Positions 9,450-30,337 of a stretch of 64,000 nucleotides of DNA are shown in pieces. Under the pieces are notes generated by a model that saw only the letters and a list, made by a program, of their open reading frames with translations, was not told the origin of the DNA and searched no databases. The DNA comes from a virus. Lineage: Duplodnaviria > Caudoviricetes. Position numbers and translations under genes: made by a program. The stretch's first letter is position 1. Each line of letters begins with the position of its first letter. The DNA lies in IMG/VR virus record IMGVR_UViG_3300029288_006559, positions 1 to 64,000 of that record, one strand, 5' to 3'.

Positions 9450-11924
9450 GTGGATAAAACAAAAGTTCTTCTTATCAGTGACTCCATTCAACGTCCTACT
9501 GGAGTTGCTATACAATCCCTTAAATTGTGTGAGGGTCTTTTAAAAACAGGTAAGTACCAAGTAATACAGATTGCAGGGGGGGACCGTTCTTCTCCTTCAG
9601 CTCCTATTTACTTCAAGGGAGTAAAACTTTATACTACTGAAAAGCCCTACGGTGATCCTCAATTACTTAGGTACATTATGGCAGCAGATAAGCCAGATAT
9701 TGTGATTGCTTTTTCTGATCCGAGATTTTTTACCTGGCTTTTTCAGATGGATAATGAAATAAGAGATAGAGCAAGGTTAGTTTTTTATCATACTTGGGAT
9801 AATTATCCTTTTCCGAAGTTTAACCTTCCCTGGTATGCTTCTTGTGATGAAGTAATCATGCTTTCTCACTTTTCTTACAATCTTATGCAGTCCAACGGTG
9901 TTAAGTGTAGGTGTATACCTCATGGAATGGACCCTACAGAATTTTATCCTCTTGACGAGGCGAGTGTTTCTAAAGCCCGACAAAACTTTATTGCTCAAAG
10001 TCATGCCAAGGGCCCCGTAAATTTTGTTATCTTTTGGAACAATAGAAATATTTACAGAAAGCGCCCAGGAGATGTTTTGTGGGCTTACAAATCTTTTTCA
10101 GAAAAGTATCCCGATTCAATGTTAGTTTTAAATACCGACATTGCAGATCGAGAGGGAATTGATTTGATGCACTTTATTGATGATCATCAAATTACTGCTC
10201 CCATTATTTTTAATCCCCAGAGAATTCCATCTCATCAATTAAATGTGTTATATAATATTTCTGATGTCACTGTTAATATAGCCCTCAATGAAGGTTTTGG
10301 ATTATGTGTCTTGCCTACTACTTCTATTTATACTGAAAATGGAATAAAAGAAATACAATATTTATCTTTACAAGATAGGGTATTGACTCATACAGGAAAT
10401 TATGAAAAAGTAACAAATATAATGCCTAGAGAAGCAGATGAAACAGTTATTGAAATTACACCTCGTTTTATTTCTATGCCTGTAACAATGTCTAAGAATG
10501 ATAAAGTTTTTGCTATAAAAGGAAAGACTTGTTTTCCTTCTCAAAAAAGACCCTGTTATCCTTATTGTAAAAAACAATTTCTCCCCCCAGGAAATTGTAA
10601 AAAGGTATTTGAAGATTATAAACCAGAATGGATTAATTCTACTGAATTAAAAAAAGGAGATATATTATTATTTCCTAAAGAAAAATTTATAGAAGAAAAC
10701 CCGGTAGAATTTGACTTAGCCGAATTTGGAGTATTTGATTATACTGAATCTTTTATACAACCTTATGGAAGTAGAGTAAAACAACTTCCCCGATATATTA
10801 TCGCTGATGAAGGATTATTTAGATTATTAGGTTATTATTTAGCTGAAGGATCTCATACTAATAATCAAATAGAATTTGCTTTTCATAAAAAAGAAAAATT
10901 TTATGGGGAAGACGTTATTTTTTTAATGCAAAAATATTTTGGATTAAACGATGCTATTGTTAGATATCATAATAATGTATTGTCTATTCGGTATACTAGT
11001 ATTATTTTGGTTGAATTTTTTACAAAATTACTTGGCGCAATAGGCCCGCAAAAAGAATTAAATTCTGTTTTATTTAATTCCCCGATTAATTTATTAAAAG
11101 AGCTTTTGAAAGGTTACTGGAGGGGGGATGGATGCTTTAGTGAAAATTCTTATTTGTTTAGCACTTCTTCTAAAAGATTAGCTTATCAAATATTTTTAAT
11201 TCTTCAACGATTTAATATTTTACCTTGTTTAAGAAAAAGTTTACATCAATCTGAAAAAGGTAATGCCTTAATGTATACTATTACTGGAGAAAGATCAGCA
11301 TTATATTATCTTGATGATAACAAACCTGAAGAAAATAATAGAAATGATATGTATTGGCAAGATGAAAATTATTTTTATGTTCCTATACGTAAAGTAAGAG
11401 AGTACCCTTATAGGGGATTGCTTTATGATATTACTGTGAATAATGATCATTCTTTTGCTGCAGAAGGAATGATTTTACATAATTGCGTGGCCGAATCACT
11501 GTGTGCAGGCACCCCTGTAATTGTTACAGAAACAGGAGGTATGATCGAGCAAGCAAGGGCGAAGATTCATCACTCAGCTGTAAGTTCTAAAACCGAGACA
11601 GATGGCAAAAGCTGTCCAGAGCATGATGAGATTATAGAATATGGTAGAGTTCTTCCTCCTGATGCAAGATCGATGTTCGGTACTATGGGGGCTCCTTATA
11701 TCTTTCAAGATATTGTAGATTCTTCTACTTTAGTGAAGGCTTTTGAGGAAGCTTATAAGAGAACTAAAGAAGGGGATTGGAAAAAAACTTTAGGACCTAT
11801 AGGAAGAGAACACATTATACAAAACTTTCACATTGATACCACTATTAAACTATGGGATGAATTGTTGCAAGAATTGATTAAAAAACCATCCTCTTATAAT
11901 CGGTGGTCTGTAACAACTATTTAG
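9450..11924 (+). CDS. GT4 (GT-B) glycosyltransferase with intein
   Basis: N-terminal LLISDS...TG; RKRP; EGFGL[intein]CVAESLCAGTPVI donor-binding motif. Confidence 0.9.
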   Translation: MDKTKVLLISDSIQRPTGVAIQSLKLCEGLLKTGKYQVIQIAGGDRSSPSAPIYFKGVKLYTTEKPYGDPQLLRYIMAADKPDIVIAFSDPRFFTWLFQMDNEIRDRARLVFYHTWDNYPFPKFNLPWYASCDEVIMLSHFSYNLMQSNGVKCRCIPHGMDPTEFYPLDEASVSKARQNFIAQSHAKGPVNFVIFWNNRNIYRKRPGDVLWAYKSFSEKYPDSMLVLNTDIADREGIDLMHFIDDHQITAPIIFNPQRIPSHQLNVLYNISDVTVNIALNEGFGLCVLPTTSIYTENGIKEIQYLSLQDRVLTHTGNYEKVTNIMPREADETVIEITPRFISMPVTMSKNDKVFAIKGKTCFPSQKRPCYPYCKKQFLPPGNCKKVFEDYKPEWINSTELKKGDILLFPKEKFIEENPVEFDLAEFGVFDYTESFIQPYGSRVKQLPRYIIADEGLFRLLGYYLAEGSHTNNQIEFAFHKKEKFYGEDVIFLMQKYFGLNDAIVRYHNNVLSIRYTSIILVEFFTKLLGAIGPQKELNSVLFNSPINLLKELLKGYWRGDGCFSENSYLFSTSSKRLAYQIFLILQRFNILPCLRKSLHQSEKGNALMYTITGERSALYYLDDNKPEENNRNDMYWQDENYFYVPIRKVREYPYRGLLYDITVNNDHSFAAEGMILHNCVAESLCAGTPVIVTETGGMIEQARAKIHHSAVSSKTETDGKSCPEHDEIIEYGRVLPPDARSMFGTMGAPYIFQDIVDSSTLVKAFEEAYKRTKEGDWKKTLGPIGREHIIQNFHIDTTIKLWDELLQELIKKPSSYNRWSVTTI
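10305..11483 (+). mobile_element. intein (393 aa) with LAGLIDADG homing endonuclease in GT4
   Basis: Starts CVLPTT, ends MILHN|C; LLGYYLAEGS and LLKGYWRGDG motifs. Confidence 0.92.
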
Positions 11925-11935
11925 GTAGAAAGAGA

Positions 11936-13141
11936 ATGAAACCCAACTTAATTGTTCAAGCTCCTGTTTTTAGCGTTAGTGGATACGGAGCGCATGCTCG
12001 TGACATTGTTCTAGGTCTTTACAATTCGGGAAAGTATAATATTAGTATTCTTCCAACTCAATGGGGAAGAACTTCTGTTTCCGATAAATTTTCCATTCAA
12101 GGAGCTGAAGTTATAGCTTCTTTGGTAAATAATAGGATCTCTCCACAAGCTGAATCTACATTTGTACATATTGGTTTACCTCCTGAAGTAAAGAAAATCA
12201 AAGGTAAAAAGGTTATATGCATTACTGCAGGAATTGAGAGCGACAGGCTTCCTACCGGATGGGCAGAATCATGCAATCAAAACCTTGATGCTTTAATCGT
12301 ACCCTCTTTCTTTATGAAAGATCTTTTTATAAGAAGTGGTGTAACAATTCCTGTATATGTTGTTGGGGAGGGGGCTGACACAACAATTTTCAATAATACT
12401 TCAAAACCTCCCTTGTTACCTTCTTCTCTAGACACAGAGTTTAATTTTTTAACAGCTGGTCAATGGATGCCCCACACAGCTATAACTGATAGAAAAGGAA
12501 TAGGAAGACTTATCAAGTGGTTTTGCGAGGTATTTGCCGATGATAAGAAAGTAGGTTTAGTTATAAAGACTATGTCTACTAATGTTTCTTCTTCAGATCG
12601 TTGGATTACAGAGAAAAGATTAAGGTCTCTTAAAGGAAACAAAATCTTGCCTCGTATTTATCTCGTTCATGGAGACATGACTGACCTAGAAATGTCTCGT
12701 CTTTACACAGATCCTCAAATACACGCTTTTGTTTCTTGTACTTCTGGTGAGGGTTTCGGAAGAACGTTACTTGAAGCTGCTGTATCCGACTTACCTACTC
12801 TAGCTACTGGTTGGTCTGGTCACATGGATTTTATGCATTCAGATCTTTCTACAATCTTTGAGTATGATCTTACACCTTTAACCCCAGAGAATTTTTGTCC
12901 CGGTCTTTTAGAACCCAGTATGCAATGGGCAATTCCGAAAGAAGTAGATGTAAAGCGTAAACTCAGGCGTTGTGTCGAGGGTTATTCTATTGCTAAAGAG
13001 AGAGCTATTAAATTAGGAGCACACTGTAGAGAAAAGTTTAGTAAAGAAAAAACAGATAAGGACTTGTTAGATGTATTTAGTGAAATTATTAAGCCTGTAT
13101 CTAATATAATTATACCCGGAGTTCAAATGGAGCAAATGTAA
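11936..13141 (+). CDS. GT4 glycosyltransferase
   Basis: SVSGYGAHAR, DRKG, GEGFGRTLLEAA motifs. Confidence 0.9.
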   Translation: MKPNLIVQAPVFSVSGYGAHARDIVLGLYNSGKYNISILPTQWGRTSVSDKFSIQGAEVIASLVNNRISPQAESTFVHIGLPPEVKKIKGKKVICITAGIESDRLPTGWAESCNQNLDALIVPSFFMKDLFIRSGVTIPVYVVGEGADTTIFNNTSKPPLLPSSLDTEFNFLTAGQWMPHTAITDRKGIGRLIKWFCEVFADDKKVGLVIKTMSTNVSSSDRWITEKRLRSLKGNKILPRIYLVHGDMTDLEMSRLYTDPQIHAFVSCTSGEGFGRTLLEAAVSDLPTLATGWSGHMDFMHSDLSTIFEYDLTPLTPENFCPGLLEPSMQWAIPKEVDVKRKLRRCVEGYSIAKERAIKLGAHCREKFSKEKTDKDLLDVFSEIIKPVSNIIIPGVQMEQM

Positions 13142-15105
13142 TGAGTAATGCAACACTTTGTATTATTATTCCTGTATATAATCAACTTTTCTATACAAAG
13201 AAAGTGTTAGAAAGTATAGAAAAGCATGAGCAACATTCTTACGATAAAATCGTAATTATTGTTGTAAATAATGCTTCGACAGACGGTACAAAAGAATGGT
13301 TATATCGAAAATGGTGTGGGGATGAAAGACTTGAGAATTATTCTAGCGGTATTATTAGATTAATATGTTCTATATCATTAGAAAAGTGTGTTATAAATAA
13401 TAAAGTAAATCTTGGATACGGACCTGCTATTAATGTTGCTTTAAAGGTTGTTTTAGAAGATAAATCTCTTCAAGATTCTGATATTCTTTTAATGAACAAC
13501 GATATGGAGTTGCTTCCTAATTGTATTGATAAATTAAAAGAAGCCTCTTACGAAGTTTTTGATGAAAAGAAAACAGGAATTGTAGGGGGTAAATTATTAT
13601 TTCCAGACGGGGTAATTCAACACGGAGGGGCTTTTTTAACTTCGTTTGGATGGGGGTGCCACAAGTTCGGAGGTGTTAGAGACGATCAAATAATTGTTGA
13701 TCAGAAAATAAATCCCCAAGAGTATGTTACAGGGGCTTTATTTTTTATAACTAATGAATGTTTCAAAAAAATAGGCTTGTTTGACGAGCGCTTTGCCCCA
13801 GCTTACTTCGAAGAAGTAGACTACTCTTTTAGAGCTCGAGATAACAATTATCAGATTATATATACCCCCTTTGCTAGAGCAATTCACTATGAGAATATTA
13901 CGTCGAAAGCTTTGAGTCCTTCAGGAAATGCTCCTTCAGAATTAAGTCATAAAAACCAAGTTAAGTTTTACCTGAAAAGAGAAGATATTCCTTATACTCC
14001 TACTTCTGAACACAAGCTTTTAATATGCTCCCAAATCCACGGGTTCTGGTCTTTTGCAACAGTAATGAAAAATTTTGCAAAAGGATTAGCTCGTAACGGT
14101 GTTGACATAGCCATTGCTCCTCAAGATTATCATACAGGTGAGAGTATCGATGATTGGGAAATTAAGCAAATGGTCGACAAACCCCACGATTGGTGGGATA
14201 GGGTAGTACTGAGGAGTGCTGAAGGAGATGATATGACTCAACTACCCCCTGGCAAGTTGAGAGTTGCACATACTACCGGAGAAAATAGTCGGATACCTCC
14301 TTCCTGGATATCTCAGTTGAATCATGTAGATAAAATTCTAACTACTTCTACATTTTTTAAGGGAGTGATGGAAAACAGTGGAGTAAAAACTCCTATCTAT
14401 GTTGTTCCCAATGCTGTAGATACTTCTATTTTTAATCTAGATGTAAAAAAATTACCTGTTGGAGACTTGCGAGGATTTAATTTTGTGTCTATGTTTCATT
14501 TTGGTACGCGTAAAGCCCCTGAAGTGTTATTAAAAGCTTTTGCTGAAGAGTTTGCCCCCGACGAAGATGTTAGTTTAACTATTCATAGTCTATCTATGCA
14601 ATACGTTATAGAAAATCAGTTAAAAATATCCTTAAAAGAATGGGTTTCTCGTATTTGCGGCCATAAACCTCACGCTCCTATCTATATTACTACCAGTCCT
14701 ATGCAGATGGGTGTTATTGGTTCTTTTTACAAAAACTTTGATGTATTTGTGTTACCGACAAGGTGTGAGGGGTTTGGGCTTCCGTTAGCCGAAGCCGCAG
14801 CCTGTGGGTTACCTAGTATTGTAACAGGTTACAGTGGAGTTCTAGATGTAGTTAACAACGATACAGGTTGGCTATTGGATTATGAATTAAAGCCTATGCC
14901 CTTACAAATAGTCCCTTATTTTAAGAACTACCTTGGAGGAGTTTGGGCCGAGCCTAATGTTGAACATTTAAAAACTTTAATGAGACATGTATTTAAGAAT
15001 AGGGAAGAAGTAAAAAAGAAGGGTAAATTAGCTTTTAATAATTCAAAGCAATTCTCTATCGATGAAGTTGGTAAGGTTGCAAAAAAAGCCATTTTTGAGG
15101 TATAA
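13141..15105 (+). CDS. GT2-GT4 bifunctional glycosyltransferase
   Basis: IIIPVYN, NNAS.DGT, LMNND, FEEVDY (GT2); RKAP, EGFGLPLAEAAACG (GT4). Confidence 0.9.
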   Translation: MSNATLCIIIPVYNQLFYTKKVLESIEKHEQHSYDKIVIIVVNNASTDGTKEWLYRKWCGDERLENYSSGIIRLICSISLEKCVINNKVNLGYGPAINVALKVVLEDKSLQDSDILLMNNDMELLPNCIDKLKEASYEVFDEKKTGIVGGKLLFPDGVIQHGGAFLTSFGWGCHKFGGVRDDQIIVDQKINPQEYVTGALFFITNECFKKIGLFDERFAPAYFEEVDYSFRARDNNYQIIYTPFARAIHYENITSKALSPSGNAPSELSHKNQVKFYLKREDIPYTPTSEHKLLICSQIHGFWSFATVMKNFAKGLARNGVDIAIAPQDYHTGESIDDWEIKQMVDKPHDWWDRVVLRSAEGDDMTQLPPGKLRVAHTTGENSRIPPSWISQLNHVDKILTTSTFFKGVMENSGVKTPIYVVPNAVDTSIFNLDVKKLPVGDLRGFNFVSMFHFGTRKAPEVLLKAFAEEFAPDEDVSLTIHSLSMQYVIENQLKISLKEWVSRICGHKPHAPIYITTSPMQMGVIGSFYKNFDVFVLPTRCEGFGLPLAEAAACGLPSIVTGYSGVLDVVNNDTGWLLDYELKPMPLQIVPYFKNYLGGVWAEPNVEHLKTLMRHVFKNREEVKKKGKLAFNNSKQFSIDEVGKVAKKAIFEV

Positions 15106-15108: not shown

Positions 15109-15438
15109 ATGTCTTTGACTGCGTTAGAAAAATTTAAGCTTCTAAAAGCCGGTAAGCCCATTCTAGAGGATGAAGATACTCTAAAATCTGCCACTCAATC
15201 TGCTCCTCAAAAGCCAAAGAAAGCTATCGAGAGAATTGAGAGGTTTTCACTAAAAGAATCTCCTTTAGATCCAGACTCTTCAAATGAGGCAACAGGAGAG
15301 CCCCATCCTAAGAAACTAGGAGAGCCTTGTAATCATCCTAAAGATAGAATATCTTCTGCTTATAGTCCATTAGTTGGAACAGTTAAGGTGTGTTTAGATT
15401 GCGGAAGGCAAATCAATGACAAAGACCTTGTTTCCTAA
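15109..15438 (+). CDS. hypothetical protein with C-terminal Zn motif
   Basis: CNH...CLDCG. Confidence 0.55.
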   Translation: MSLTALEKFKLLKAGKPILEDEDTLKSATQSAPQKPKKAIERIERFSLKESPLDPDSSNEATGEPHPKKLGEPCNHPKDRISSAYSPLVGTVKVCLDCGRQINDKDLVS

Positions 15439-16372
15439 AGATTTAATTATTCACATCCTCCCAGACAATTTAATCGTTTGTGGCGGAGTAAAAGTTCATA
15501 TTCAACTTTCTGAATTAGAACAAGAACTAGGCTATGATAGTTTTGTTGCTTTTCCAGAAAGAGCGGTACCAACATGGTTTAAACATTCTGCTACTTGTAT
15601 TTCTTACGATGATGCTAAAGATTTTTTACGAGCTGTTAAAGGAACTTCCGTAAAAAGGATTATTATTGGCTGGGAAGATATAGATGTTTTAGATAACTTT
15701 GATGCAGATACTAGAATTGCTTATATACAAGGAGAGTCTTTAATAAAGCATTCTTACAAAGCTTTTGAAGATTTTCTTGTACATTCTAACGGGCGAATTT
15801 GGTACAGTAGTAAATGGAACCGTAATGCGAATAAAGCCCCTGACGGGTCTCTTGTAAGTCCTTATATAAATACAGATATTTTTTATCCTGCTCTATATAA
15901 AGGTTATTATGGAAAGTTTCAAGTGCTAGTTTTAACACGCAAGCACGGTAGAGACGAATGGCAAAAAGTTGCAAATTGTTTATCTCCTGATGTACTGAAA
16001 GAATTTAATGTTATTTTTCATGATAATACTTCTGAGGATGAATTTGCTTCTGTATTACGTAGTTCGGATATTTTCTTCAATCACTCTTCTCCGGAAGGTC
16101 TAGGACTGCCTTCTTTAGAAGCTATGGCAAGTCAAGTGCTAGTTATAGGTTATCCCGGCGGGGGAGGAACAGATTTTATGAGAGAAGGGGTAAATTGTCT
16201 TAGTTCAAGAACAGGAGATGCAAAATCCGTCGCTACTGTTTTAGAAGATATTGCCGAAAACGGCTTTCCTCATAATTCTATTCTTGGGAGAGGTTATGAA
16301 ACAGCTGTAGAGTTATATTCAAAAGTTCGAACTTTTAATCAATTGAAGGTTGCCCTAGATGCCATTGTTTGA
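15416..16372 (+). CDS. GT4 glycosyltransferase
   Basis: CGGVKV; EGLGLPSLEAMAS. Confidence 0.85.
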   Translation: MTKTLFPKDLIIHILPDNLIVCGGVKVHIQLSELEQELGYDSFVAFPERAVPTWFKHSATCISYDDAKDFLRAVKGTSVKRIIIGWEDIDVLDNFDADTRIAYIQGESLIKHSYKAFEDFLVHSNGRIWYSSKWNRNANKAPDGSLVSPYINTDIFYPALYKGYYGKFQVLVLTRKHGRDEWQKVANCLSPDVLKEFNVIFHDNTSEDEFASVLRSSDIFFNHSSPEGLGLPSLEAMASQVLVIGYPGGGGTDFMREGVNCLSSRTGDAKSVATVLEDIAENGFPHNSILGRGYETAVELYSKVRTFNQLKVALDAIV

Positions 16373-19120: not shown

Positions 19121-19143
19121 TTAAAAAAGTAAGGATAAGAAAA

Positions 19144-23278: not shown

Positions 23279-24198
23279 ACGACTTGAGAGATGAATTTTT
23301 TGATGAGCTGGTTTTTTTAGCAAAAAATAATTCAAACGTTATTCTTTTAACAGCTGATATGGGAGCTCAAGGTTTGGAGAAGTTTCAAAAAGAACTTCCA
23401 AAGCAATTTTTCAACGTAGGTATTTCTGAACAAAATTTGATAAGCGTTGCTGCTGGTCTTGCTTTAGCTGGAAAGAAAGTTTATGTGTACACTATTTCTG
23501 CTTTTCTTATTCAAAGGGCTTTAGACCAAATTAAAGTTGATCTCTGCGGAATGAATTTACCCGTAACACTAGTAGGTGTAGGCGGGGGAATTTCATATAC
23601 ATATGATGCTTTTACTCATCATATTCCTCAAGATATTGCTATTATGAACTCTCTTCCTAACATGACCATTCGTTGTCCTTATGATATCGAAACTACTCGT
23701 CAAAGTGTTCTTCTTACTTTCACAAGCAAATCTCCATGTTATATCAGACTTGAAAAGGGAGATTTGCTTAATCTAAGTGTTTTGTCTAAAATTGAAGGTA
23801 TAAATATTTTTTTGCGGGGTGACGCTTGTACTGTTATAACATACGGTCGTTTGATTCATAAAATTCTTCCTATTGCATGTCATACTACAATTACAGGGGG
23901 ATCTGTAGGTTGTATGGGAATAGAGAGAATAAAACCTTTTCCAGAAGAAGTTTTTATTGAACAAATTAAAAATGTTGAGCATTTAATTATTGTTGAAGAA
24001 CATTCTCGAATTGGTGGACTTGGTTCTATTATTAGTGAAATACTAGTGAGAAGAAATATATCAAAAAAAGTTTCTTTTTATAATCTTGAAGATAAGGTTT
24101 GTAACCTTTCTGGGGATGAAGATTTTATTTATTCGTATTATGGTTTAAACTTAAAAAAACTTCGAACAGATATTTTTGAGGAGGTAATAAAGAAATGA
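23275..24198 (+). CDS. transketolase C-terminal subunit
   Basis: NVGISEQN, RALDQI, THH, EEHSRIGGLG. Confidence 0.92.
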   Translation: MNDLRDEFFDELVFLAKNNSNVILLTADMGAQGLEKFQKELPKQFFNVGISEQNLISVAAGLALAGKKVYVYTISAFLIQRALDQIKVDLCGMNLPVTLVGVGGGISYTYDAFTHHIPQDIAIMNSLPNMTIRCPYDIETTRQSVLLTFTSKSPCYIRLEKGDLLNLSVLSKIEGINIFLRGDACTVITYGRLIHKILPIACHTTITGGSVGCMGIERIKPFPEEVFIEQIKNVEHLIIVEEHSRIGGLGSIISEILVRRNISKKVSFYNLEDKVCNLSGDEDFIYSYYGLNLKKLRTDIFEEVIKK

Positions 24199-24680
24199 AA
24201 ATTAATCTAGGATGTGGTATGAACAAGTTACCAGGATTTGTTAATATAGATGCAAATCCTTCTTTCGCACCCGATAGGATTGAAGATGTTCGTAATATTG
24301 TTTTTGCTCCCAATTCTATCGATGAAGTAGCTTTTTCTCATGTGTTAGAGCATCTTCCAAAATCATTTTATGAAGAGATATTAAAAAGAATTTATTCATG
24401 GTTAAAACCAGGGGCAAAACTCTATATATCTGTACCTGATTTACCTAAAGTATGTGAAGCATATTTAAGAACGAAAGATCCGTTTTTGCTTTTTTGGATA
24501 TATGGATCCGGGGAAGAGGATAGAATGTCTCATTGTTGGGGTTTCGATACAAACTCTTTACATACTCTTTTAACCCAAATTGGGTTTGCCTATACAGAGG
24601 ATTTTCCCGGTCTTGGGGGGGACTCTTCTTTTGTTTATGATGGAGTTCTTTTGTCTATAAACAGGATATATCAAAAGTGA
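24195..24680 (+). CDS. SAM-dependent methyltransferase (type 11-like)
   Basis: NLGCG, SHVLEH, LKPG...VPD. Confidence 0.88.
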   Translation: MKINLGCGMNKLPGFVNIDANPSFAPDRIEDVRNIVFAPNSIDEVAFSHVLEHLPKSFYEEILKRIYSWLKPGAKLYISVPDLPKVCEAYLRTKDPFLLFWIYGSGEEDRMSHCWGFDTNSLHTLLTQIGFAYTEDFPGLGGDSSFVYDGVLLSINRIYQK

Positions 24681-25399
24681 AAGACGTAAGCGTAATTGTT
24701 TCTTCAATTCGACCGGAGTATTGGGATAGGTTTTATAGATCTATTTCTAATTGTAAAGCGGATTTTGAAGTCATCTTTGTAGGACCAACTCCAGATGGAC
24801 CTCTTCCTAGATGTAGATATGTACAAACATCCGTAAAACCTTCACAATGTTGGCACATTGCTATTAGTCAAGCAGAATCAGATAGAATTTTTCTTATTGG
24901 AGATGATTTTTTCTTTTCAGAACATTTGCTTGACAAATTTCTTCAGCAAGTAAGTGAAGCAGGTGAGAATTTTATTGCAAGTTGTGAGATACGTTGTGGT
25001 GGGAAAGCAGTACCTGCACAACATTATTTCTTTGATTGGAGAAATAGTCTGGGACCTAAAGCCGTATATGGGGTTATGTTTAGTAAGAAATATTACTTTG
25101 AAGTAGGAGGATTTGATTCTTCATTTATTGCTTTATACATGGATTGGGATTTGATAGAAAGATTAAGAAGAATAGGTGCGAAGGAGATTTTTATTTCGGA
25201 TTGTTTTGTAGATGAATCTTGTGAAGTTAGATTAACCACAAGATTAAATGAAACTGATTTTGCTTATTTGCTCGATTGCTGGCTTGACGGCGATAAAATA
25301 CGTGAACAGAGGAAGCATCCTATAATACCTTTCACTGAAAAAGATATTTTAATACTTTCACAAGGACCTAAAAGTATTCCTGGAAGGGAATGGGTATAA
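24677..25399 (+). CDS. GT2-like glycosyltransferase
   Basis: VSVIVSSIR, IGDD, GGFD, YMDWD. Confidence 0.75.
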   Translation: MKDVSVIVSSIRPEYWDRFYRSISNCKADFEVIFVGPTPDGPLPRCRYVQTSVKPSQCWHIAISQAESDRIFLIGDDFFFSEHLLDKFLQQVSEAGENFIASCEIRCGGKAVPAQHYFFDWRNSLGPKAVYGVMFSKKYYFEVGGFDSSFIALYMDWDLIERLRRIGAKEIFISDCFVDESCEVRLTTRLNETDFAYLLDCWLDGDKIREQRKHPIIPFTEKDILILSQGPKSIPGREWV

Positions 25400-25402: not shown

Positions 25403-26107
25403 ATGTCATGGACAGATTTTAAGGCTATTGAAACTTTTTGTAAGTTAAGAGATGAATTCAATATTAATTATTTTATAGAAACAGGAACCTTTAGAGCTCA
25501 AGGAGCTCGTGTAATGTCTTCTTTTTTTAAAGATGTATTTTCGTGTGAAATAAATTTGGATTATTGTATTGTAGCAAGAAAGAATACGGAAGATATTCCC
25601 AATGTTAGGATATTTTTAGAAGATAGTACTGTCTTTCTTAAAGCACTTTCTAGAATATTTTATGATCCTGTATTTTATTATTTAGATGCTCATTTCTACG
25701 ATTCTAAACTACCGAAGGAAGAGAGATTTACAATAAAAAGAGAATTAGAGGCTATAAAATCTTCAAAAAATTGTGTGATTGCTATTCACGATTTCGATAC
25801 GCGTAATGGTTTGGGTCATTTAGTATACGATGGTATTCCCCTCGATTTTGAAGTTGTAAAGGAAGGTTTAAGGAAAATTAATCCTGATTTTGTATTTTAT
25901 ACAAATTACAAAGAAGCTTGTAAAATTGTAATTCAAGACGATATAGCTACGGGTAAGCTTCCTCATCTAACGTTAACTTCTGATATGAAAGATTCTTTAG
26001 ACTTTATTTGGTCAGATCCTTTTAAAACATATAGGGGTATTTTATATTGTGTTCCTAAAGAATTAGATTTAACTAAATACGAATTACATAAGGTAGATTG
26101 GAAATGA
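25403..26107 (+). CDS. methyltransferase-like protein
   Basis: FIETGT, SCEI, YLDAH, IHDF. Confidence 0.7.
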   Translation: MSWTDFKAIETFCKLRDEFNINYFIETGTFRAQGARVMSSFFKDVFSCEINLDYCIVARKNTEDIPNVRIFLEDSTVFLKALSRIFYDPVFYYLDAHFYDSKLPKEERFTIKRELEAIKSSKNCVIAIHDFDTRNGLGHLVYDGIPLDFEVVKEGLRKINPDFVFYTNYKEACKIVIQDDIATGKLPHLTLTSDMKDSLDFIWSDPFKTYRGILYCVPKELDLTKYELHKVDWK

Positions 26108-26844
26108 AGATTAAACAAGCTATTGTAACAGGAGGGACACATGGCATCGGGTTGGCAATTGTAAAACAACTTGTAGAAGAAGGGTATTCTGTAATTACTG
26201 CATCTAGAAACGCCCCTAGTATAGAAATGAAAAATACTTTTCATTTCCCCACAGATTTTACTACTGAAAAAGGCATAAATCGTTTTATTGATTTTCTTTA
26301 TGACAATAATAATAATTATACTAAAGCGAGTGTATTGATAAATAACGTAGGCGGAGGAGGAAGATGGGGGAAAGAAAATACTTTGGCTACAGATGAATAT
26401 ATTTGGCAAGAGGTTTGGAATAAGAATTATCAAATTGCTCGTAAATTAACTCTTGCTGTGCTACCTTATATGAAACAAGAAAATTGGGGAAGAGTAATTA
26501 CGGTGTCTTCTATTTATGGAAAAGAGGCGGGAGGAAGACCTTGGTTTACCGTTGCTAAAGCAGCTGAGATTGCTTTAATGAAATCTTTTGCAAAATGTAA
26601 AGATCTTGTTAGACATGGTATTACATTTAATACCGTTTGTCCAGGAGCTATTTATATTCCAGGTACTGGATGGGACAATATGTCAGGCATAGATAAGATA
26701 GAATTCGAAGATTCATTACCTATAGGAAGAATGGGTAGTCCTGAAGAAGTGGCTAGTGTAGTGAAGTTTCTTTGTTCAAATGAAGCTTCTTTTGTTAACG
26801 GAGCTTGTATTACAGTGGATGGGGGAGAAAGTAGGAGTTTTTAG
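26104..26844 (+). CDS. classical SDR oxidoreductase (FxxxK variant)
   Basis: TGGTHGIG, NNVGG, WFTVAK, GRMG.PEE, VDGG. Confidence 0.88.
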   Translation: MKIKQAIVTGGTHGIGLAIVKQLVEEGYSVITASRNAPSIEMKNTFHFPTDFTTEKGINRFIDFLYDNNNNYTKASVLINNVGGGGRWGKENTLATDEYIWQEVWNKNYQIARKLTLAVLPYMKQENWGRVITVSSIYGKEAGGRPWFTVAKAAEIALMKSFAKCKDLVRHGITFNTVCPGAIYIPGTGWDNMSGIDKIEFEDSLPIGRMGSPEEVASVVKFLCSNEASFVNGACITVDGGESRSF

Positions 26845-26846: not shown

Positions 26847-27464
26847 ATGACAGATCATACAGTAGAATCTTTAAAAGCTTTTGAAGATAAGGTAATAAAA
26901 CACTTTGAAGCAGGCAAGATCCGAGGACCAGTACATTTATCTCGTGGTAATGAAGAGGCTTTAATTGAAATTTTTAAAGATATAGATTCAGATGACTGGG
27001 TATTTTCTACTTGGCGCAATCACTACCACGCCTTACTACATGGAATTTCAGAAGAGTGGTTAATGAAAGAAATTCTTGCTGGCAGAAGTATTAATATTAA
27101 CAATGCAGAACATCATTTCTACACTTCCGCAATTGTAGGAGGGATTATTCCAATTGCACTAGGGGTAGCAAAAGCTTTAAAGATAAAAGCAGTATCTAAC
27201 AAAGTTTGGTGCTTCATAGGAGATATGACTTATCGTACAGGTATTTTTACAGAGGTGAATAGATATGCCCGTAATTTTGAGTTGCCTATTAATTTCGTAG
27301 TTGAAGATAATAATTTTAGTACTAATACTCCTACAGATGAGTGTTGGAAACTCTCTCGTAATACCTTATTAGAAAACAAGGTCATAAGAGAAGGTAATCT
27401 TTATTATTATCAATACACTCGGCAATTTCCTCATGTAGGTATAGGAAAGTTTGTTCATTTCTAA
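26847..27464 (+). CDS. truncated pyruvate dehydrogenase E1 alpha-like ThDP enzyme
   Basis: GPVHLSRGNE, WRNHYH, SAIVGG, GD...EDNN. Confidence 0.85.
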   Translation: MTDHTVESLKAFEDKVIKHFEAGKIRGPVHLSRGNEEALIEIFKDIDSDDWVFSTWRNHYHALLHGISEEWLMKEILAGRSININNAEHHFYTSAIVGGIIPIALGVAKALKIKAVSNKVWCFIGDMTYRTGIFTEVNRYARNFELPINFVVEDNNFSTNTPTDECWKLSRNTLLENKVIREGNLYYYQYTRQFPHVGIGKFVHF

Positions 27465-27475
27465 GAGAGGTTATT

Positions 27476-28006
27476 ATGAAGTATTTCGATGAACTTGTGA
27501 GAGCTATGGATATGTTGGCTACACATCCTAAAGTTATTTTTTTAGGACAATCGGTTGTCTGGGATGGGCATGCTCTGTTTAAAACATTAAGAAACATTCC
27601 TATAGAGAAAAGGTTAGAAATGCCTGTAGCTGAAGACATGCAGATGGGATTTTCTACAGGATTAGCCTTAGAAGGATTTATTCCAGTATCTATTTTTCCA
27701 CGCTGGGATTTTCTACTCTTAGCTATGAACCAAATGGTGAATCACTTAGATAAAGTTCCTTTATTAGGCAGTATGACGCCTAAAGTTATTATTAGGACCT
27801 CTATTGGAAGTAAGAAACCTTTAAATCCAGGCTTGCAGCATTGTCAGGATTATACAGAAGCTGTTAAAAAAATGGTAACTACATTAGATGTTATTGATCT
27901 TACTGAACCAGAGCAGATTTATCCTTCTTACGAGAAAGCTTTAAATCGTCTTGATAGATGTTCGACGTTATTAGTAGAGCATATGGATTTTTATAATGAA
28001 AAATAG
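27476..28006 (+). CDS. truncated pyruvate dehydrogenase E1 beta-like subunit
   Basis: LGQSV, EMPVAE, AMNQMVN, QH; lacks the C-terminal domain. Confidence 0.85.
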   Translation: MKYFDELVRAMDMLATHPKVIFLGQSVVWDGHALFKTLRNIPIEKRLEMPVAEDMQMGFSTGLALEGFIPVSIFPRWDFLLLAMNQMVNHLDKVPLLGSMTPKVIIRTSIGSKKPLNPGLQHCQDYTEAVKKMVTTLDVIDLTEPEQIYPSYEKALNRLDRCSTLLVEHMDFYNEK

Positions 28007-28098
28007 GAGATAATAATGGGCTGGAGTAGAGAAAAAAAATTCGGAGTGGGTTAAGAAAAAATTCTAAGTTCTTATTTAAAGAAGAGAGGGTATGTGCA

Positions 28099-29094
28099 AT
28101 GATTCCGCAAAGAGTATTAGAATCTTTTACCGGTAAATATTGTTTAGTTACTGGGGGCACCGGCTTAATAGGTAGACAAGTTGTTGAGATCTTGTCAAAA
28201 GCTGGAGCCAATGTAGATGTTGTTTCTTTGGATTTTATTGATTTAGGTTTACCTAATGTAGAAACATATCGATGTGATCTTAGACAACCTGATGTTTGTC
28301 GAGATCTTGTTACTGGGTGTGATTACGTATTTCACTTGGCGGGTGTCAAGGGCTCTGTAGAAGTAACTAAATCAAAACCAGCTAGTTTTTTCGTTCCTTT
28401 GTTGCAGTTTAATACCAACGTTTTAGAAGCTTGCAAAGAGCTCAGAGTCGAAAAGGTGATATATACTAGTTCTATCGGAGCTTACGAAAGCGCAGAGGTG
28501 TTTGTAGAAGGAGATATTACGCAAGGACCTCCTATGGATCTTTTTCCCGGATGGGCCAAACGTATGGCGGAGCTGCAAATTCAAGCTTATAAAATACAAC
28601 ATGGTTTGAATAATTTTACAGTTGTTAGACCTTGCAACGTTTACGGACCGGGGGATAATTTTGATCCTGAAAATGCAATGTTTATACCTTCTCTTATGTC
28701 CAAAATTCATAGAGGAGATAACCCTGTTATGATCTGGGGAGATGGAACTGTTATTAGAGATTTTGCTTTTAGTAGAGATGTAGCTGAAGGAATTATTTTA
28801 GCTTTGTATTACCAACCCGATGTGCCTTATCTAAATTTAGGGAGTGGGGTGGGAGTTTCTGTAAAGGAGTTGGTAGAGACAATGAATAGAGTAGTTTCTT
28901 TTAATTATAAATTTGATATTACTAAACCTTCAGGATTTCCAAAAAGAGTTATGAATATTGAAAAAGCGATGAAGTTAATAGATTACAATCCTATAACTAC
29001 TCTTGAACAAGGATTGAGAGAAACATGGGAATGGTTTATAAAGAATGAAGAAGAATATAAACAAAGAAAAAATTATTTTTCTGAGGAGGAATAA
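28099..29094 (+). CDS. NAD-dependent NDP-sugar epimerase, Fcl-like (Tyr-less)
   Basis: TGGTGLIG, NVYGPGDNF, WGDG; PGWAK at the YxxxK position. Confidence 0.85.
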   Translation: MIPQRVLESFTGKYCLVTGGTGLIGRQVVEILSKAGANVDVVSLDFIDLGLPNVETYRCDLRQPDVCRDLVTGCDYVFHLAGVKGSVEVTKSKPASFFVPLLQFNTNVLEACKELRVEKVIYTSSIGAYESAEVFVEGDITQGPPMDLFPGWAKRMAELQIQAYKIQHGLNNFTVVRPCNVYGPGDNFDPENAMFIPSLMSKIHRGDNPVMIWGDGTVIRDFAFSRDVAEGIILALYYQPDVPYLNLGSGVGVSVKELVETMNRVVSFNYKFDITKPSGFPKRVMNIEKAMKLIDYNPITTLEQGLRETWEWFIKNEEEYKQRKNYFSEEE

Positions 29095-29097
29095 ATT

Positions 29098-29349
29098 ATG
29101 GAACCAGGAAAAAAGAGTTGGAAAGAATTTCAGGAAACAGGTTTGCTATGGTGGATTAATCGAATATTGCATACTTTTGGCTGGGCAATAACATTAGTTC
29201 AAATGGAAGACGGTACTGTTACAGAGGCTTATCCTGCAAGATGCAGATTTAGAGGTTTTGCATATGAGGATGAGGAAAAAGGTTTTAAGAGTGTATCTAA
29301 TTATATGGCTAGTGAAGCTGAGGAATTGAAGAAAGAAGCAAATTCTTAA
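29098..29349 (+). CDS. conserved phage hypothetical protein
   Basis: GAGGAGG RBS; GLLWWINRILHTFGWAI. Confidence 0.65.
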   Translation: MEPGKKSWKEFQETGLLWWINRILHTFGWAITLVQMEDGTVTEAYPARCRFRGFAYEDEEKGFKSVSNYMASEAEELKKEANS

Positions 29350-29360
29350 AAGGGAAAGTT

Positions 29361-29897
29361 ATGAAAATTATACCAACAAAATTTGAAAAGGCAAAGTTGA
29401 TTGAACTTCCTATATTTAGAGATTTTCGGGGAGATTACGTAGAAACTTATAATGAGAATTTTTATAAGGCTTTAGATGTACCTATGCCTTTTGTTCAGGA
29501 CAGTTTTTCTACATCCAGGAAAGATGTTTTAAGGGGGTTTCACGGGGATCCTTTAACATGGAAACTCATACAAGTAGTTTCAGGTGAAGTTTATGAGGTG
29601 ATAGTTGATTTGAATGAAAATAGTCCTACTTATCTAGAATGGGAAGCATTTATTATAGGAGAGAAAGATCGAAGACAGCTTCTAATCCCTCCAGGATTTG
29701 GTAATGCTATGTTGGCTTTAACGGATAATGTAGTTTATTACTATAAACAGACTACATATTATGGGCAGGCAAGACAATTTACTGTAAGATGGGATGATCC
29801 TACTTTGAAGGTTTTTTGGCCTATAGACAATCCCATATTATCAAAAAGGGATACTAAAGGGAAACAGGTTTATATTGGAGGAACAAAGCAAATATGA
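29361..29897 (+). CDS. rmlC: dTDP-4-dehydrorhamnose 3,5-epimerase (RmlC family)
   Basis: DFRG, VQDS.S.S, VLRGFH, IPPGFG, WDDP, LSKRD. Confidence 0.9.
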   Translation: MKIIPTKFEKAKLIELPIFRDFRGDYVETYNENFYKALDVPMPFVQDSFSTSRKDVLRGFHGDPLTWKLIQVVSGEVYEVIVDLNENSPTYLEWEAFIIGEKDRRQLLIPPGFGNAMLALTDNVVYYYKQTTYYGQARQFTVRWDDPTLKVFWPIDNPILSKRDTKGKQVYIGGTKQI

Positions 29898-30337
29898 GTA
29901 GTAGAGAATATTTACCTACGTTTGCGGAGCTTATCGATCGTCTTAGCATTGTTGTATTGAAGGAAGTTTTTGTTCCCGAAAATGCAGCTGCTTACAAAGA
30001 AGAACAAGAACTTATAATGCACGATATAGATGAGATTATTGAAACGCAATCGTGGACAGATCCTACAGACAAAAGGTGGCATATTAACGCTAAAATTATT
30101 CGTGCAATACTTATTTTGATGCTCACCAACCGGTATATCTGGGAAAACGAATCAAAAGCGCGGGCTGGAGGTGAAGATCAAGATAAACTTTTAAAGCTTA
30201 CGCATTCTATCAACGGTGTTCGAAACACTGCAAAGAATGTTATTGCTAAAGAACTTGGAGAGCGAGTTGATTTAAAAGTAGATTGTCTTGCGGAAGGGTT
30301 GGTAAAAGAATTTGGAAATTGGAATGTTTTTGAATAA
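29894..30337 (+). CDS. helical protein of glycan loci (DUF4254/DUF6165-like)
   Basis: ELIDRLSI..LK, N..IWENE..R, N..RN..KN.I. Confidence 0.6.
   Translation: MSSREYLPTFAELIDRLSIVVLKEVFVPENAAAYKEEQELIMHDIDEIIETQSWTDPTDKRWHINAKIIRAILILMLTNRYIWENESKARAGGEDQDKLLKLTHSINGVRNTAKNVIAKELGERVDLKVDCLAEGLVKEFGNWNVFE

What the first reader, a model, noticed from the sequence alone, without database searches (positions are those of the whole stretch)
9450..30337. Phage-encoded ~21 kb pathway for building and transferring an unusual (branched or higher-carbon) glycan
Seen: a contiguous, largely translationally coupled locus with 9 glycosyltransferase-like genes (3 GT4, 1 GT2-GT4 fusion, 5 GT2-like), 3 methyltransferase-like genes, a Gmd-type dehydratase, 2 Fcl-like enzymes, RmlC, an SDR and two split ThDP enzymes. 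It is interleaved with typical phage ORFs (FmdB ribbon, 16670, 29098) and flanked by the phage promoter motif, so it looks like a native phage module and not a recently captured host island. Established: ThDP enzymes in sugar clusters add C2 units to NDP-4-keto sugars (YerE for yersiniose; the PDH-E1-like AviB1/AviB2 for eurekanate). Inference: the phage makes its own exotic methylated, C-branched sugar and assembles an oligosaccharide on virion proteins, DNA or the host surface. No nucleotidyltransferase, flippase, Wzy or undecaprenyl-phosphate initiating transferase is visible and the GTs look soluble, which favours a cytoplasmic acceptor (capsid proteins or DNA) over O-antigen.
Basis: partly seen in the sequence, partly recalled or inferred. 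Interest (0 to 1): 0.88.

Follow-up and report, generated by a model that had tools for sequence, protein, structure and literature searches.

The report
Phage operon for tailored heptose glycan
An uncultured large phage devotes about 21 kb, in one gap-free operon, to soluble enzymes that most likely turn a host seven-carbon activated sugar into an unusual deoxy, carbon-branched, methylated sugar and build a glycan from it. The sugar-making core is an uncharacterised module that also occurs in very abundant ocean bacteria and in many other phages.

Summary
Positions 9450-30337 carry 26 co-directional, mostly overlapping genes. These are 3 GT4 (one split by an intein), a GT2-GT4 fusion, 3 clear and 2 probable GT2-like genes, 3 methyltransferase-like genes, a 4,6-dehydratase, two Fcl-like SDRs, an RmlC-like epimerase, a classical SDR, a split transketolase and a miniature E1 alpha/beta pair.

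The record is a phage, held at 134 kb and about 73% complete. A diverged syntenic relative has the cluster at the same place, so it is native to the lineage.

What changes:
- The dehydratase matches the Campylobacter GDP-manno-heptose 4,6-dehydratase twice as well as Gmd.
- Cellular copies of the module sit beside GmhA, HddA and HddC. Phage copies lack these genes, so the phage probably starts from host GDP-heptose, not GDP-mannose.
- The core module is widespread in SAR11, SAR202, Prochlorococcus, CPR bacteria and archaea, and in at least 14 viral contigs. No member is characterised.
- Both Fcl-like proteins and the SDR lack the catalytic tyrosine, and this loss is conserved across the family.

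The held 134 kb encodes no initiating transferase, flippase, polymerase, ABC exporter, nucleotidyltransferase or pyrimidine hydroxymethylase. The acceptor is unresolved: virion proteins lead, the host envelope is a close second, and DNA is unlikely. This scan has found the same kind of cluster before on other phage DNA.

The parts
9365..9449 (+). Leader region with a degenerate copy of the phage -10-like motif (GCGGTATTATG). It is the likely start of the operon.
9450..11924 (+). GT4 glycosyltransferase interrupted by an intein with a LAGLIDADG endonuclease
   Evidence: Pfam. The intein-less homologue L015:16-1017 aligns on both sides of the insert.
10305..11483 (+). Intein, aa 286-678 (Cys1 ... 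HN / Cys+1), inserted inside the EX7E catalytic motif: EGFGL|CV..HN|CVAES
11903..13141 (+). GT4-like glycosyltransferase (weak Pfam hit; 52% identical to the homologue in the relative)
13141..15105 (+). Two-domain GT2 (N-terminal) plus GT4 (C-terminal) glycosyltransferase
15109..15438 (+). 109-aa protein of unknown function, low complexity, with a C-terminal CxxC
15416..16372 (+). GT4 glycosyltransferase
16359..16673 (+). Zn-ribbon (FmdB-like) small protein with a Lys-rich tail. It is conserved in the relative at 42% identity.
16670..16918 (+). 82-aa protein of unknown function
16930..17664 (+). GT2 glycosyltransferase
17661..18437 (+). GT2 glycosyltransferase
18425..19120 (+). GT2-like (borderline Pfam score)
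19108..19827 (+). Methyltransferase (Methyltransf_24; CmcI/TylF-like class)
19827..20531 (+). Probable GT-A/GT2-like protein (a lead only)
   Evidence: No Pfam hit.
20528..21544 (+). NDP-sugar 4,6-dehydratase, closest to GDP-D-glycero-D-manno-heptose 4,6-dehydratase. SSSEVYG and YSISK are intact.
21520..22533 (+). Fcl-like extended SDR 'B'. It has an NAD(P) motif, but VGWTK stands in place of YxxxK.
22517..23278 (+). Split transketolase, N-terminal (PP-domain) half, with GDG...N intact
23275..24198 (+). Split transketolase, Pyr plus C-terminal domain half
24195..24680 (+). Small class I methyltransferase (Methyltransf_23/11)
24677..25399 (+). GT-A-type glycosyltransferase-like protein that travels with the sugar module. 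It is a candidate transferase for the special sugar.
25403..26107 (+). Protein with a class I SAM-methyltransferase fold (no Pfam hit). It is paired with the SDR in other loci.
26098..26844 (+). Classical SDR (FabG-like) with FTVAK in place of YxxxK
26847..27464 (+). Miniature E1-alpha-like ThDP PP-domain subunit (205 aa; GDM-x27-NN)
27476..28006 (+). Miniature E1-beta-like Pyr-domain subunit (176 aa). It has no C-terminal domain, and the cofactor-activating Glu is present.
28099..29094 (+). Fcl-like extended SDR 'A' with PGWAK in place of YxxxK. It is 54-55% identical to SAR11 and SAR202 copies.
29098..29349 (+). 83-aa protein of unknown function, conserved in the relative
29361..29897 (+). 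RmlC-like cupin C3/C5 epimerase
29894..30337 (+). 147-aa four-helix protein of a virus-dominated family. It usually sits next to the dehydratase. Function unknown.
30350..30991 (+). Sigma-70-family factor. It is the last gene of the same gap-free transcription unit, and it also follows the cluster in the relative.

Best explanation
The locus is a lineage-conserved phage operon in two blocks.

Tailoring block (19108-30337). [quoted passage not shown]
- The 4,6-dehydratase makes the GDP-4-keto-6-deoxy intermediate.
- The RmlC-like cupin epimerises C3 and/or C5.
- The miniature E1 alpha/beta ThDP enzyme, with the adjacent SDR, and/or the split transketolase add a two-carbon unit to the keto sugar. 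This is inferred by analogy with YerE/YerF and AviB1/B2.
- The two Tyr-less Fcl-like proteins and three methyltransferases finish the tailoring.

Transferase block (9450-19120, plus 19827 and 24677). Soluble GT4 and GT2 enzymes then assemble an oligo- or polysaccharide in the cytoplasm.

The phage encodes no sugar activation and no export machinery. It therefore depends on the host nucleotide-sugar pool. It either glycosylates a cytoplasmic target, with virion proteins the leading candidate, or hands the product to host machinery.

Shown: the gene content, the homologies, the conservation and the absences. Inferred: the substrate, the order of steps, the branching chemistry and the acceptor.
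For: - Inventory and tight coupling of the genes.
- The dehydratase scores 199.8 bits (E 5.5e-58) against the C. jejuni GDP-heptose 4,6-dehydratase 7US5, against about 100 bits for Gmd structures. The alignment is full length and SSSEVYG is identical.
- The RmlC-like protein matches C. jejuni GDP-heptose 3- and 3,5-epimerases as well as it matches dTDP RmlC.
- In a Dehalococcoidia locus (L087) the gene order is Wzt, HddC-like, GmhA, mini-E1 alpha, mini-E1 beta, dehydratase, HddA-like, NUDIX, Fcl, RmlC, Fcl.
- Among 67 cellular loci, HddA-like genes occur in 32, GmhA in 19 and HddC in 18. Among 81 viral loci each occurs in 0-1, and none occurs in this genome.
- Of 14 viral loci with a dehydratase of the module's type (40% or more identical), 10 hold E1 alpha, 12 hold Fcl-A, 9 hold RmlC, 12 hold the 147-aa protein and 6 hold the transketolase.
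- The ThDP motifs are intact: GDM-x27-NN, the Glu of the Pyr domain, and GDG...N in the transketolase.
- Precedents exist for ThDP branching of NDP-4-keto sugars followed by side-chain reduction (PMC9306805, PMC4753412).
- Native to the phage: synteny with G001 and a viral-only dehydratase clade with 100/100 support.
- No transmembrane proteins in the locus. No Bac_transf, MraY/WecA-type transferase, Wzy_C or real ABC exporter.
Against: - The phage has no GmhA, HddA or HddC, so heptose use requires a host that makes GDP-heptose. The host is unknown.
- Rmd, an enzyme of the GDP-mannose pathway, is the second-best structural match (163.9 bits).
- Both Fcl-like proteins and the SDR lack the catalytic Tyr, so the assumed reductions may not happen as drawn.
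- The mini-E1 is far smaller than AviB1/B2-type E1 pairs, and no member of its family has been assayed.
- The transketolase could simply supply sedoheptulose 7-phosphate.
- The cluster lies among early and replication genes, not next to structural genes as in mycobacteriophages.
- 27% of the genome is not held.
- A six-helix membrane protein lies next to a GT2-methyltransferase fusion elsewhere in the genome. An envelope route therefore stays open.
Confidence: 0.5

Rival explanations
1. Host-envelope remodelling. The soluble phage GTs build a new polymer containing the tailored sugar on the host's undecaprenyl carrier. The host's own initiating transferase and ABC (Wzm/Wzt) exporter place it on the cell surface. 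This would block superinfection or change receptor display.
For: - Cellular homologues of the module sit in surface-polysaccharide loci with Wzt/ABC exporters and GT2s.
- ABC-dependent O-polysaccharides are assembled entirely in the cytoplasm by soluble GT4, GT2 and fused GTs, and are often capped by methylation (established knowledge).
- The pelagimyophage literature favours this role for phage LPS genes (PMC7029224).
- The operon carries an early-type, sigma-70-like -10 motif.
- A membrane protein lies next to a GT2-methyltransferase fusion elsewhere in the genome.
Against: - No initiating, export or ligase gene occurs in 134 kb.
- A lytic phage has little time to resurface a cell.
- It needs precise compatibility with the host exporter.
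- There is no direct evidence.
Confidence: 0.3
2. DNA hypermodification. The glycan is attached to modified bases in the phage DNA.
For: - The GTs are soluble.
- Phage GTs can hypermodify DNA with diverse glycans (Pyle et al. 2024, as cited in PMC12619734).
Against: - No thymidylate-synthase-family hydroxymethylase occurs in the held genome.
- Earlier notes assign this phage a DpdA3 7-deazaguanine system, which is not known to be glycosylated.
- Nine or more GTs and a branched-sugar pathway far exceed known DNA-glycosylation systems.
Confidence: 0.05
3. The ThDP enzymes do not branch the sugar. The split transketolase tops up sedoheptulose 7-phosphate for heptose synthesis, and the mini-E1 makes a non-sugar substituent or precursor. 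The product would be an unbranched 6-deoxy-heptose of Campylobacter type.
For: - The N-half scores best against genuine transketolases, including the catalytically verified split enzyme 6YAK.
- Heptoses derive from sedoheptulose 7-phosphate (PMC10680097).
- Split transketolases in SAR11 hypervariable regions have no known function (10.1101/672428).
Against: - The phage lacks GmhA, HddA and HddC, so extra sedoheptulose 7-phosphate would help only through host enzymes.
- The mini-E1 pair is embedded between GmhA and the dehydratase, or next to Fcl/RmlC, in cellular loci.
- Relatives add a YerE-like ALS-family enzyme, a PanB-like enzyme and an AKR next to the transketolase. This matches the keto-acid-donor branching scheme of PMC9306805.
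- In the alignment to the verified split enzyme, 'ATHAG' aligns to 'GVGGG', so one His is missing.
Confidence: 0.25
4. The cluster is a recently captured bacterial island, or the contig is cellular.
For: - Homologous modules exist in many bacteria.
Against: - The record encodes PolA, DnaB, RNR, GroEL, RecA and RNA ligase, nearly all genes lie on one strand, and it holds several inteins.
- GC content is uniform.
- The syntenic relative has the cluster at the same site.
- The dehydratase lies on a long viral-only branch.
- Best identity to cellular copies is 57% or less.
Confidence: 0.03

Closest known systems
Campylobacter jejuni capsular GDP-heptose modification pathways (GmhA/HddA/GmhB/HddC, then C4,6-dehydratase, C3/C5-epimerases and C4-reductases; PMC10680097; PDB 7US5, 8DAK, 7M14)
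   Same: The dehydratase is the closest solved relative of that enzyme (199.8 bits). The RmlC-like epimerase matches the heptose epimerases. Fcl-family partners are present. Cellular versions of the module carry GmhA, HddA and HddC.
   Different: The phage has no GDP-heptose synthesis genes. The two Fcl-like proteins lack the catalytic Tyr. Two ThDP enzyme pairs and three methyltransferases are added. Nothing here has been assayed.
ThDP-dependent acyl-branching of NDP-4-keto sugars: YerE/YerF (yersiniose), ErwE/ErwF (erwiniose), AviB1/AviB2 and Pau11/Pau12 with the reductase Pau7 (PMC9306805, PMC4753412)
   Same: A ThDP enzyme sits in a cluster with a 4,6-dehydratase and an adjacent oxidoreductase. 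The architecture is E1 alpha/beta-like, as in AviB1/B2. Relatives of this phage also carry a YerE-like ALS-family enzyme, an AKR and a keto-acid-modifying enzyme (PanB).
   Different: The E1 pair is cut down to bare PP and Pyr domains (205 and 176 aa). The substrate is GDP-linked and probably a heptose, not a CDP/dTDP 3,6-dideoxyhexose. The adjacent SDR has Phe in place of Tyr. This phage itself lacks the YerE-like enzyme.
'LPS gene clusters' of T4-like cyanophages and pelagimyophages (PMC7029224)
   Same: These are large blocks of glycosyltransferase and sugar-nucleotide genes in lytic phages of aquatic bacteria. Their function is untested. The genes are homologous to host hypervariable surface-glycan islands.
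   Different: Here the cluster is a single 21-kb operon placed among early and replication genes and ending in the phage sigma factor, not in the tail-fibre hypervariable region. It is conserved in position in a diverged relative.
Virion glycosylation in mycobacteriophages (Freeman et al. 2023, as summarised in PMC12619734)
   Same: Phage-encoded soluble GTs and methyltransferases that could decorate capsid or tail proteins.
   Different: Those systems have 2-4 GTs next to structural genes and use host sugar nucleotides without tailoring. Here at least 9 GT-like genes and a complete tailoring pathway lie far from any recognised structural gene.
Split transketolase of Carboxydothermus hydrogenoformans (PDB 6YAK/6YAJ)
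   Same: The same two-gene architecture. Both halves give the best PDB hit to it (155 and 122 bits).
   Different: The context is a glycan operon, not central metabolism. One His of the 'ATHAG' segment aligns to Gly.

Membership tests
GDP-heptose modification pathway (C. jejuni type) | An extended-SDR 4,6-dehydratase specific for GDP-manno-heptose, with Ser/Glu and YxxxK | tested here: met
   7US5 is the best match, at twice the score of Gmd. SSSEVYG and YSISK are present, and Tyr is invariant in 54 homologues. Substrate specificity itself cannot be tested here.
GDP-heptose modification pathway (C. jejuni type) | An RmlC-fold C3/C5 epimerase | tested here: met
   PF00908 at 156.9 bits. PDB hits 8DAK, 8DCL and 7M14 score about the same as dTDP RmlC.
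GDP-heptose modification pathway (C. jejuni type) | An Fcl-family C4 reductase with a Ser-Tyr-Lys triad | tested here: not met
   PGWAK and VGWTK stand at the YxxxK position. The same replacement (P, A, V or G) recurs in viral and cellular homologues.
GDP-heptose modification pathway (C. jejuni type) | GmhA, HddA, GmhB and HddC to make GDP-heptose | tested here: not met
   None occurs in the held 134 kb. They are present beside the module in cellular loci.
ThDP acyl-branching systems (YerE/YerF; AviB1/AviB2) | A ThDP enzyme with an intact cofactor-binding motif and activating Glu | tested here: met
   GDM-x27-NN, with G125, D126 and M127 invariant in 16 sequences. PVAED is present in the beta-like subunit.
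ThDP acyl-branching systems (YerE/YerF; AviB1/AviB2) | Full-size E1 alpha/beta (about 330 aa each) or an ALS-like flavoenzyme architecture | tested here: not met
   The subunits are 205 and 176 aa. The alpha-like subunit matches only profile positions 5-171 of 300, and the beta-like subunit lacks Transketolase_C. The ALS-like enzyme is absent here but present in relatives.
ThDP acyl-branching systems (YerE/YerF; AviB1/AviB2) | Carboligation of a 2-oxo acid onto an NDP-4-keto sugar | not testable with these tools
   Needs an enzyme assay.
Transketolase (split type) | PP, Pyr and C-terminal domains with GDG...N | tested here: met
Transketolase (split type) | A full set of substrate-phosphate-binding residues | tested here: inconclusive
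   Arg5 and the Arg of 'YIRL' align with the verified enzyme. 'ATHAG' aligns to 'GVGGG'. This was read from one pairwise alignment only.
Bacterial O-antigen/capsule gene cluster | An initiating phosphoglycosyl transferase, a flippase or ABC exporter, and a polymerase or ligase | tested here: not met
   PF02397, PF00953 and PF04932 give no match. PF00005 gives only an 18.9-bit sub-threshold hit. There are no transmembrane proteins in the locus. The genome is 73% complete.
Phage virion-glycosylation system (mycobacteriophage type) | GT genes placed among capsid and tail genes, and a glycan shown on virion proteins | tested here: not met
   The locus lies between tRNA-Pro and the sigma factor, upstream of the replication genes. 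The presence of a glycan cannot be tested.
Phage DNA glycosylation | A hydroxymethyl-pyrimidine-forming ThyA homologue plus a DNA glycosyltransferase | tested here: not met
   No PF00303 match.

The most novel reading that the evidence does not exclude
The conserved core is the dehydratase, the RmlC-like epimerase, two Tyr-less 'GW(A/T)K' Fcl-like proteins, a Phe-for-Tyr SDR, the miniature E1 alpha/beta pair and the split transketolase. Together these would make an undescribed class of carbon-branched 6-deoxy-heptose by chemistry that differs from YerE and AviB. The sugar would be a major surface component of SAR11, SAR202 and Prochlorococcus. Phages such as this one would make it from host GDP-heptose to coat their own virions, so the particle would mimic or mask itself with a host-like glycan.
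Probability: 0.25. Interest if true: 0.85.

Novelty: new variant of a known kind. Interest (0 to 1): 0.62.

Why it matters
Large glycan gene blocks in aquatic phages are usually counted as 'LPS auxiliary genes', or even as central-metabolism genes: 'pyruvate dehydrogenase', 'transketolase', and in relatives 'acetolactate synthase' and 'panB'. No one has tested what they do.

This locus shows that these genes belong to one coherent, conserved sugar-tailoring module. [quoted passage not shown] Phage copies have dropped the sugar-activation steps and so depend on the host's GDP-heptose.

The module holds enzyme forms with no characterised member. These are a bare two-domain E1-type ThDP enzyme (more than 5,000 homologues) and SDRs that have all lost the catalytic tyrosine. 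It is therefore a concrete entry point to new carbohydrate chemistry.

It also makes two questions testable: what phage glycans are for, and how phages and hosts contest the cell-surface glycan that phages use as a receptor.

Tried and rejected
- Nucleotide search of the phage collection with 20528-24198 found no match.
- Searches of viral contigs with the sigma factor and the upstream TPM protein found no relatives. The relative was found through the dehydratase instead.
The contexts of the closest mini-E1 homologues, for example the 87% identical P0005, could not be read.
- The 147-aa protein folds as a confident four-helix bundle (pLDDT 80) with no PDB match. The atlas gives only virus-dominated unnamed clusters. 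Its function is left open.
- Pfam at E up to 0.5 gave nothing for 15109, 16670, 19827, 25403 and 29098, or for the six-helix membrane protein.
- The promoter and terminator consensus scan of the locus gave counts equal to shuffles. It gives no evidence for internal signals.
- The PHROG scan of ten large late-region proteins did not reveal the major capsid protein. No candidate acceptor could be examined.
- A GDP-mannose/Gmd reading was considered and ranked below heptose.
- A phosphonate or ComDE-type split decarboxylase was considered for the 205 + 176 aa pair. It was rejected because the domain order is PP then Pyr, as in E1, transketolase and DXS.
- Freeman et al. 2023 could not be opened. 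It is cited only through PMC12619734.

Full report
**What is there**

The window is the first 64 kb of a single 134,292-bp IMG/VR virus record, linear, with a CheckV completeness of 73%. Nearly all coding capacity lies on the + strand. GC content is even at 0.32-0.38 across the window, including the locus.

The record encodes RNR, helicases, DnaB, a PolA-type polymerase, RNA ligase, GroEL, RecA and several inteins. Earlier notes of this scan place a portal and a prohead protease further on, and assign the phage a DpdA3 7-deazaguanine DNA-modification system. I did not recheck those notes. The contig is a phage.

Between tRNA-Pro (8949-9023) and tRNA-Met (31577-31658), 26 + strand ORFs run from 9450 to 30337. 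They are joined by overlaps or by gaps of 12 nt or less. The one exception is a 92-nt gap at 28007-28098. The sigma-70-family gene follows 12 nt later. A consensus scan finds no more promoter-like or terminator-like sites inside the locus than in shuffled sequence.

- GT4 at 9450, 11903 and 15416.
- A GT2-GT4 fusion at 13141.
- GT2 at 16930, 17661 and 18425 (the last borderline).
- A GT-A-like protein at 24677. Its family keeps an invariant DD and GG.D..F.
- A further GT2-like lead at 19827.
- Methyltransferases at 19108 and 24195. A third, at 25403, is recognisable only by fold: pLDDT 80, and all top Foldseek hits are class I SAM methyltransferases.
- A 4,6-dehydratase, two Fcl-like extended SDRs, an RmlC-like cupin, a FabG-like SDR, a split transketolase and a split E1-like pair.

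By a simple hydropathy scan, no locus protein has a transmembrane segment.

**Which sugar**

Pfam's GDP_Man_Dehyd model is generic, and NCBIfam gives no equivalog. Against solved structures, the dehydratase scores 199.8 bits (E 5.5e-58, full length, identical SSSEVYG, YxxxK present) with the C. jejuni GDP-D-glycero-D-manno-heptose 4,6-dehydratase. It scores 163.9 bits with the Rmd reductase. True Gmd enzymes score only about 85-100 bits. The RmlC-like protein matches the C. jejuni GDP-heptose 3- and 3,5-epimerases as well as it matches dTDP RmlC.

The neighbourhoods of cellular homologues are the stronger argument. A Dehalococcoidia locus reads Wzt, HddC-like, GmhA, mini-E1 alpha, mini-E1 beta, dehydratase, HddA-like kinase, NUDIX, Fcl, RmlC, Fcl. 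For these three genes the best NCBIfam model is the heptose enzyme by a wide margin, although each score lies below the equivalog cut-off.

Across 67 cellular loci fetched through the mini-E1 alpha subunit, HddA-like genes occur in 32, GmhA in 19 and HddC in 18. Across 81 viral loci each occurs in 0-1. None occurs in this genome.

The most economical reading is that the module tailors GDP-manno-heptose and that phage copies live off the host pool. GDP-mannose remains possible; I put the odds at about 70:30.

**The module is conserved and widespread**

The mini-E1 alpha subunit has 5,592 database relatives at E up to 1e-5. They are about 58% identical over the whole 195-215 aa, and all carry only automatic names. 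Invariant residues include GDM, STNTPT and a C-terminal PH.G.G.

Genome scans find the mini-E1 pair in SAR11 (including an isolate genome), SAR202/Dehalococcoidia, Prochlorococcus, SAR116, CPR bacteria, Omnitrophota and archaea.

Of 33 cellular loci of 18 kb or more:
- all have the beta partner;
- 22 have Fcl-A;
- 20 have the dehydratase;
- 17 have Fcl-B;
- 14 have RmlC;
- 9 have the transketolase N-half (8 have the C-half);
- 8 have the SDR.

Of 14 viral contigs whose dehydratase is 40% or more identical:
- 10 have E1 alpha;
- 12 have Fcl-A;
- 9 have RmlC;
- 6 have the transketolase;
- 12 have the 147-aa helical protein, which is otherwise nearly virus-specific.

The literature has noticed 'incomplete transketolases' in a SAR11 hypervariable region without explaining them (10.1101/672428).

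**The cluster is native to the phage**

The contig behind L015 (62.6 kb) is a syntenic relative. It carries GT4, GT4, GT2-GT4, GT4, the Zn-ribbon protein, GT2, the dehydratase (74%), Fcl-B (68%), the transketolase halves, the 24677-like protein, E1 alpha and beta (51% and 55%), Fcl and RmlC (79%). These are followed by the sigma factor (45%), helicase, DnaB, PolA and GroEL in the same order as here.

It differs by gains and losses:
- it has no intein;
- it has an extra aldo-keto reductase, a PanB that passes the equivalog cut-off, and an ALS/YerE-like ThDP enzyme;
- a TnpB gene lies between the two halves of the 83-aa gene.

In a maximum-likelihood tree, this phage's dehydratase sits in a viral-only clade of nine on a long branch with 100/100 support. 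That clade is sister to a SAR11-rich clade. The cluster is therefore old in phages and not a recent capture.

**How it probably works**

Established chemistry offers a template. A 4,6-dehydratase makes an NDP-4-keto-6-deoxy sugar. A ThDP enzyme (YerE, ErwE or the E1-like AviB1/B2 and Pau11/12) adds the acyl anion from a 2-oxo acid to C4. A reductase (YerF, or the AKR Pau7) reduces the side chain (PMC9306805; PMC4753412).

Here the E1-like pair has intact cofactor motifs. It is cut down to the PP and Pyr domains and lacks the beta C-terminal domain. No E2 or E3 was seen among the proteins I scanned, but I did not search the genome for them. It therefore looks like a stand-alone carboligase, and it lies directly after an SDR. 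The split transketolase could add a glycolaldehyde unit, or it could merely supply sedoheptulose 7-phosphate.

The relatives' PanB + YerE-like + AKR trio fits the scheme in which a functionalised keto acid serves as donor. This phase of the argument is inference.

**An oddity that cautions against drawing a standard pathway**

Three of the four SDR-fold proteins lack the catalytic tyrosine:
- Fcl-A reads PGWAK;
- Fcl-B reads VGWTK;
- the classical SDR reads FTVAK.

All three keep their dinucleotide-binding glycine motifs. The loss is a family trait. Orthologues in viral and cellular loci read P/A/G-GWAK, V-G/A-W-T/M-K and F-x-x-x-K, while the dehydratase keeps Tyr in 54 of 54 homologues. An earlier first-reader note on another genome pointed to this feature, and I tested it here. 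These proteins either use another acid/base residue or do something other than simple ketoreduction.

**The acceptor**

The held genome has no NTP_transferase, SIS/GmhA, Bac_transf, WecA/MraY-type transferase or Wzy_C/ligase. Its only ABC_tran match is an 18.9-bit sub-threshold hit. The enzymes are soluble, so assembly is cytoplasmic.

There is no ThyA-family hydroxymethylase, which makes DNA glycosylation of the known kind unlikely.

Virion proteins and the host envelope, through host carrier and exporter, cannot be separated by sequence. For the envelope route:
- bacterial homologues sit with ABC exporters;
- a six-helix membrane protein lies next to a GT2-methyltransferase fusion at 116386-118971;
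- a further GT2 lies at 132432-133487.

For the virion route:
- the machinery is complete and soluble, with nine or more transferases;
- the precedents are mycobacteriophages and giant viruses.

I rate virion about 45%, envelope about 30-35%, DNA about 5% and other about 15%.

**In passing**

The first GT4 carries a 393-aa intein with a LAGLIDADG endonuclease, exactly inside its EX7E catalytic motif. The relative's gene reads straight through the same site.

**Novelty**

Phage glycan clusters and ThDP sugar branching are both known kinds. This is an unusually large, operonic, lineage-conserved version, built on a module that nobody has characterised.

This scan has reported the same kind of phage heptose or branched-sugar island on other DNA. 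Those are AI notes and I do not count them as evidence.

No step needed referral.

Noticed in passing
window 10305-11483: A 393-aa intein with a LAGLIDADG homing endonuclease sits inside the EX7E catalytic motif of a GT4 glycosyltransferase, which is an unusual host protein for an intein. The homologue in the relative (L015:16-1017) lacks it.
   Followed up: yes
window 21520-22533, 26098-26844, 28099-29094: Three SDR-fold proteins read VGWTK, FTVAK and PGWAK where YxxxK should be. The loss of the catalytic Tyr is conserved in orthologues from SAR11, SAR202, archaea and phages, and a Trp is conserved next to it.
   Followed up: yes
L003:12386-14971 (genome 116386-118971): The only multi-helix membrane protein of the held genome (388 aa, no Pfam or PHROG hit) lies directly upstream of a GT2 plus methyltransferase fusion (417 aa). 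This may be a second, membrane-linked glycan function.
   Followed up: partly
L004:8432-9487 (genome 132432-133487): Another GT2 glycosyltransferase lies far from the main locus.
   Followed up: no
L015:13397-17082: The closest relative carries an aldo-keto reductase, a PanB that passes NCBI's equivalog cut-off, and an acetolactate-synthase/YerE-like ThDP enzyme just before its split transketolase. This phage lacks all three.
   Followed up: partly
L015:4391-5712: In the relative, a TnpB/IS605 OrfB-like gene (Cas12f1-like TNB domain) lies between two fragments homologous to the 83-aa gene 29098-29349, as if it had inserted into that gene.
   Followed up: no
L002:2392-6849 (genome 86392-90849): A 1485-aa protein carries two intein/LAGLIDADG insertions. 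With the GT4 intein, and the QueC intein noted by an earlier agent, this phage is rich in inteins.
   Followed up: no
window 295, 1651, 30993, 35876, 48489, 61762; genome 116409: A recurrent intergenic motif, (C/A)GTGTATTAT(A), resembles an extended -10. At two sites it lies just after a terminator-like hairpin. One copy directly follows the sigma-factor stop codon.
   Followed up: partly
L097:13522-15180: A 'Pelagibacteraceae' single-cell contig carries the sugar module right next to a Cpn60/GroEL gene, as the phages of this lineage do. The contig may belong to a phage that was infecting the sorted cell.
   Followed up: no
window 30350-30991: The phage sigma-70-family factor is the last gene of the glycan operon, both here and in the relative. 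Glycan genes and the presumed late-transcription switch are therefore co-transcribed.
   Followed up: partly
window 7127-8971: Just upstream of the locus lie a 527-aa TPM-domain protein with two hydrophobic segments and a small Cys-rich zf-like protein. I could not link either to the locus.
   Followed up: no
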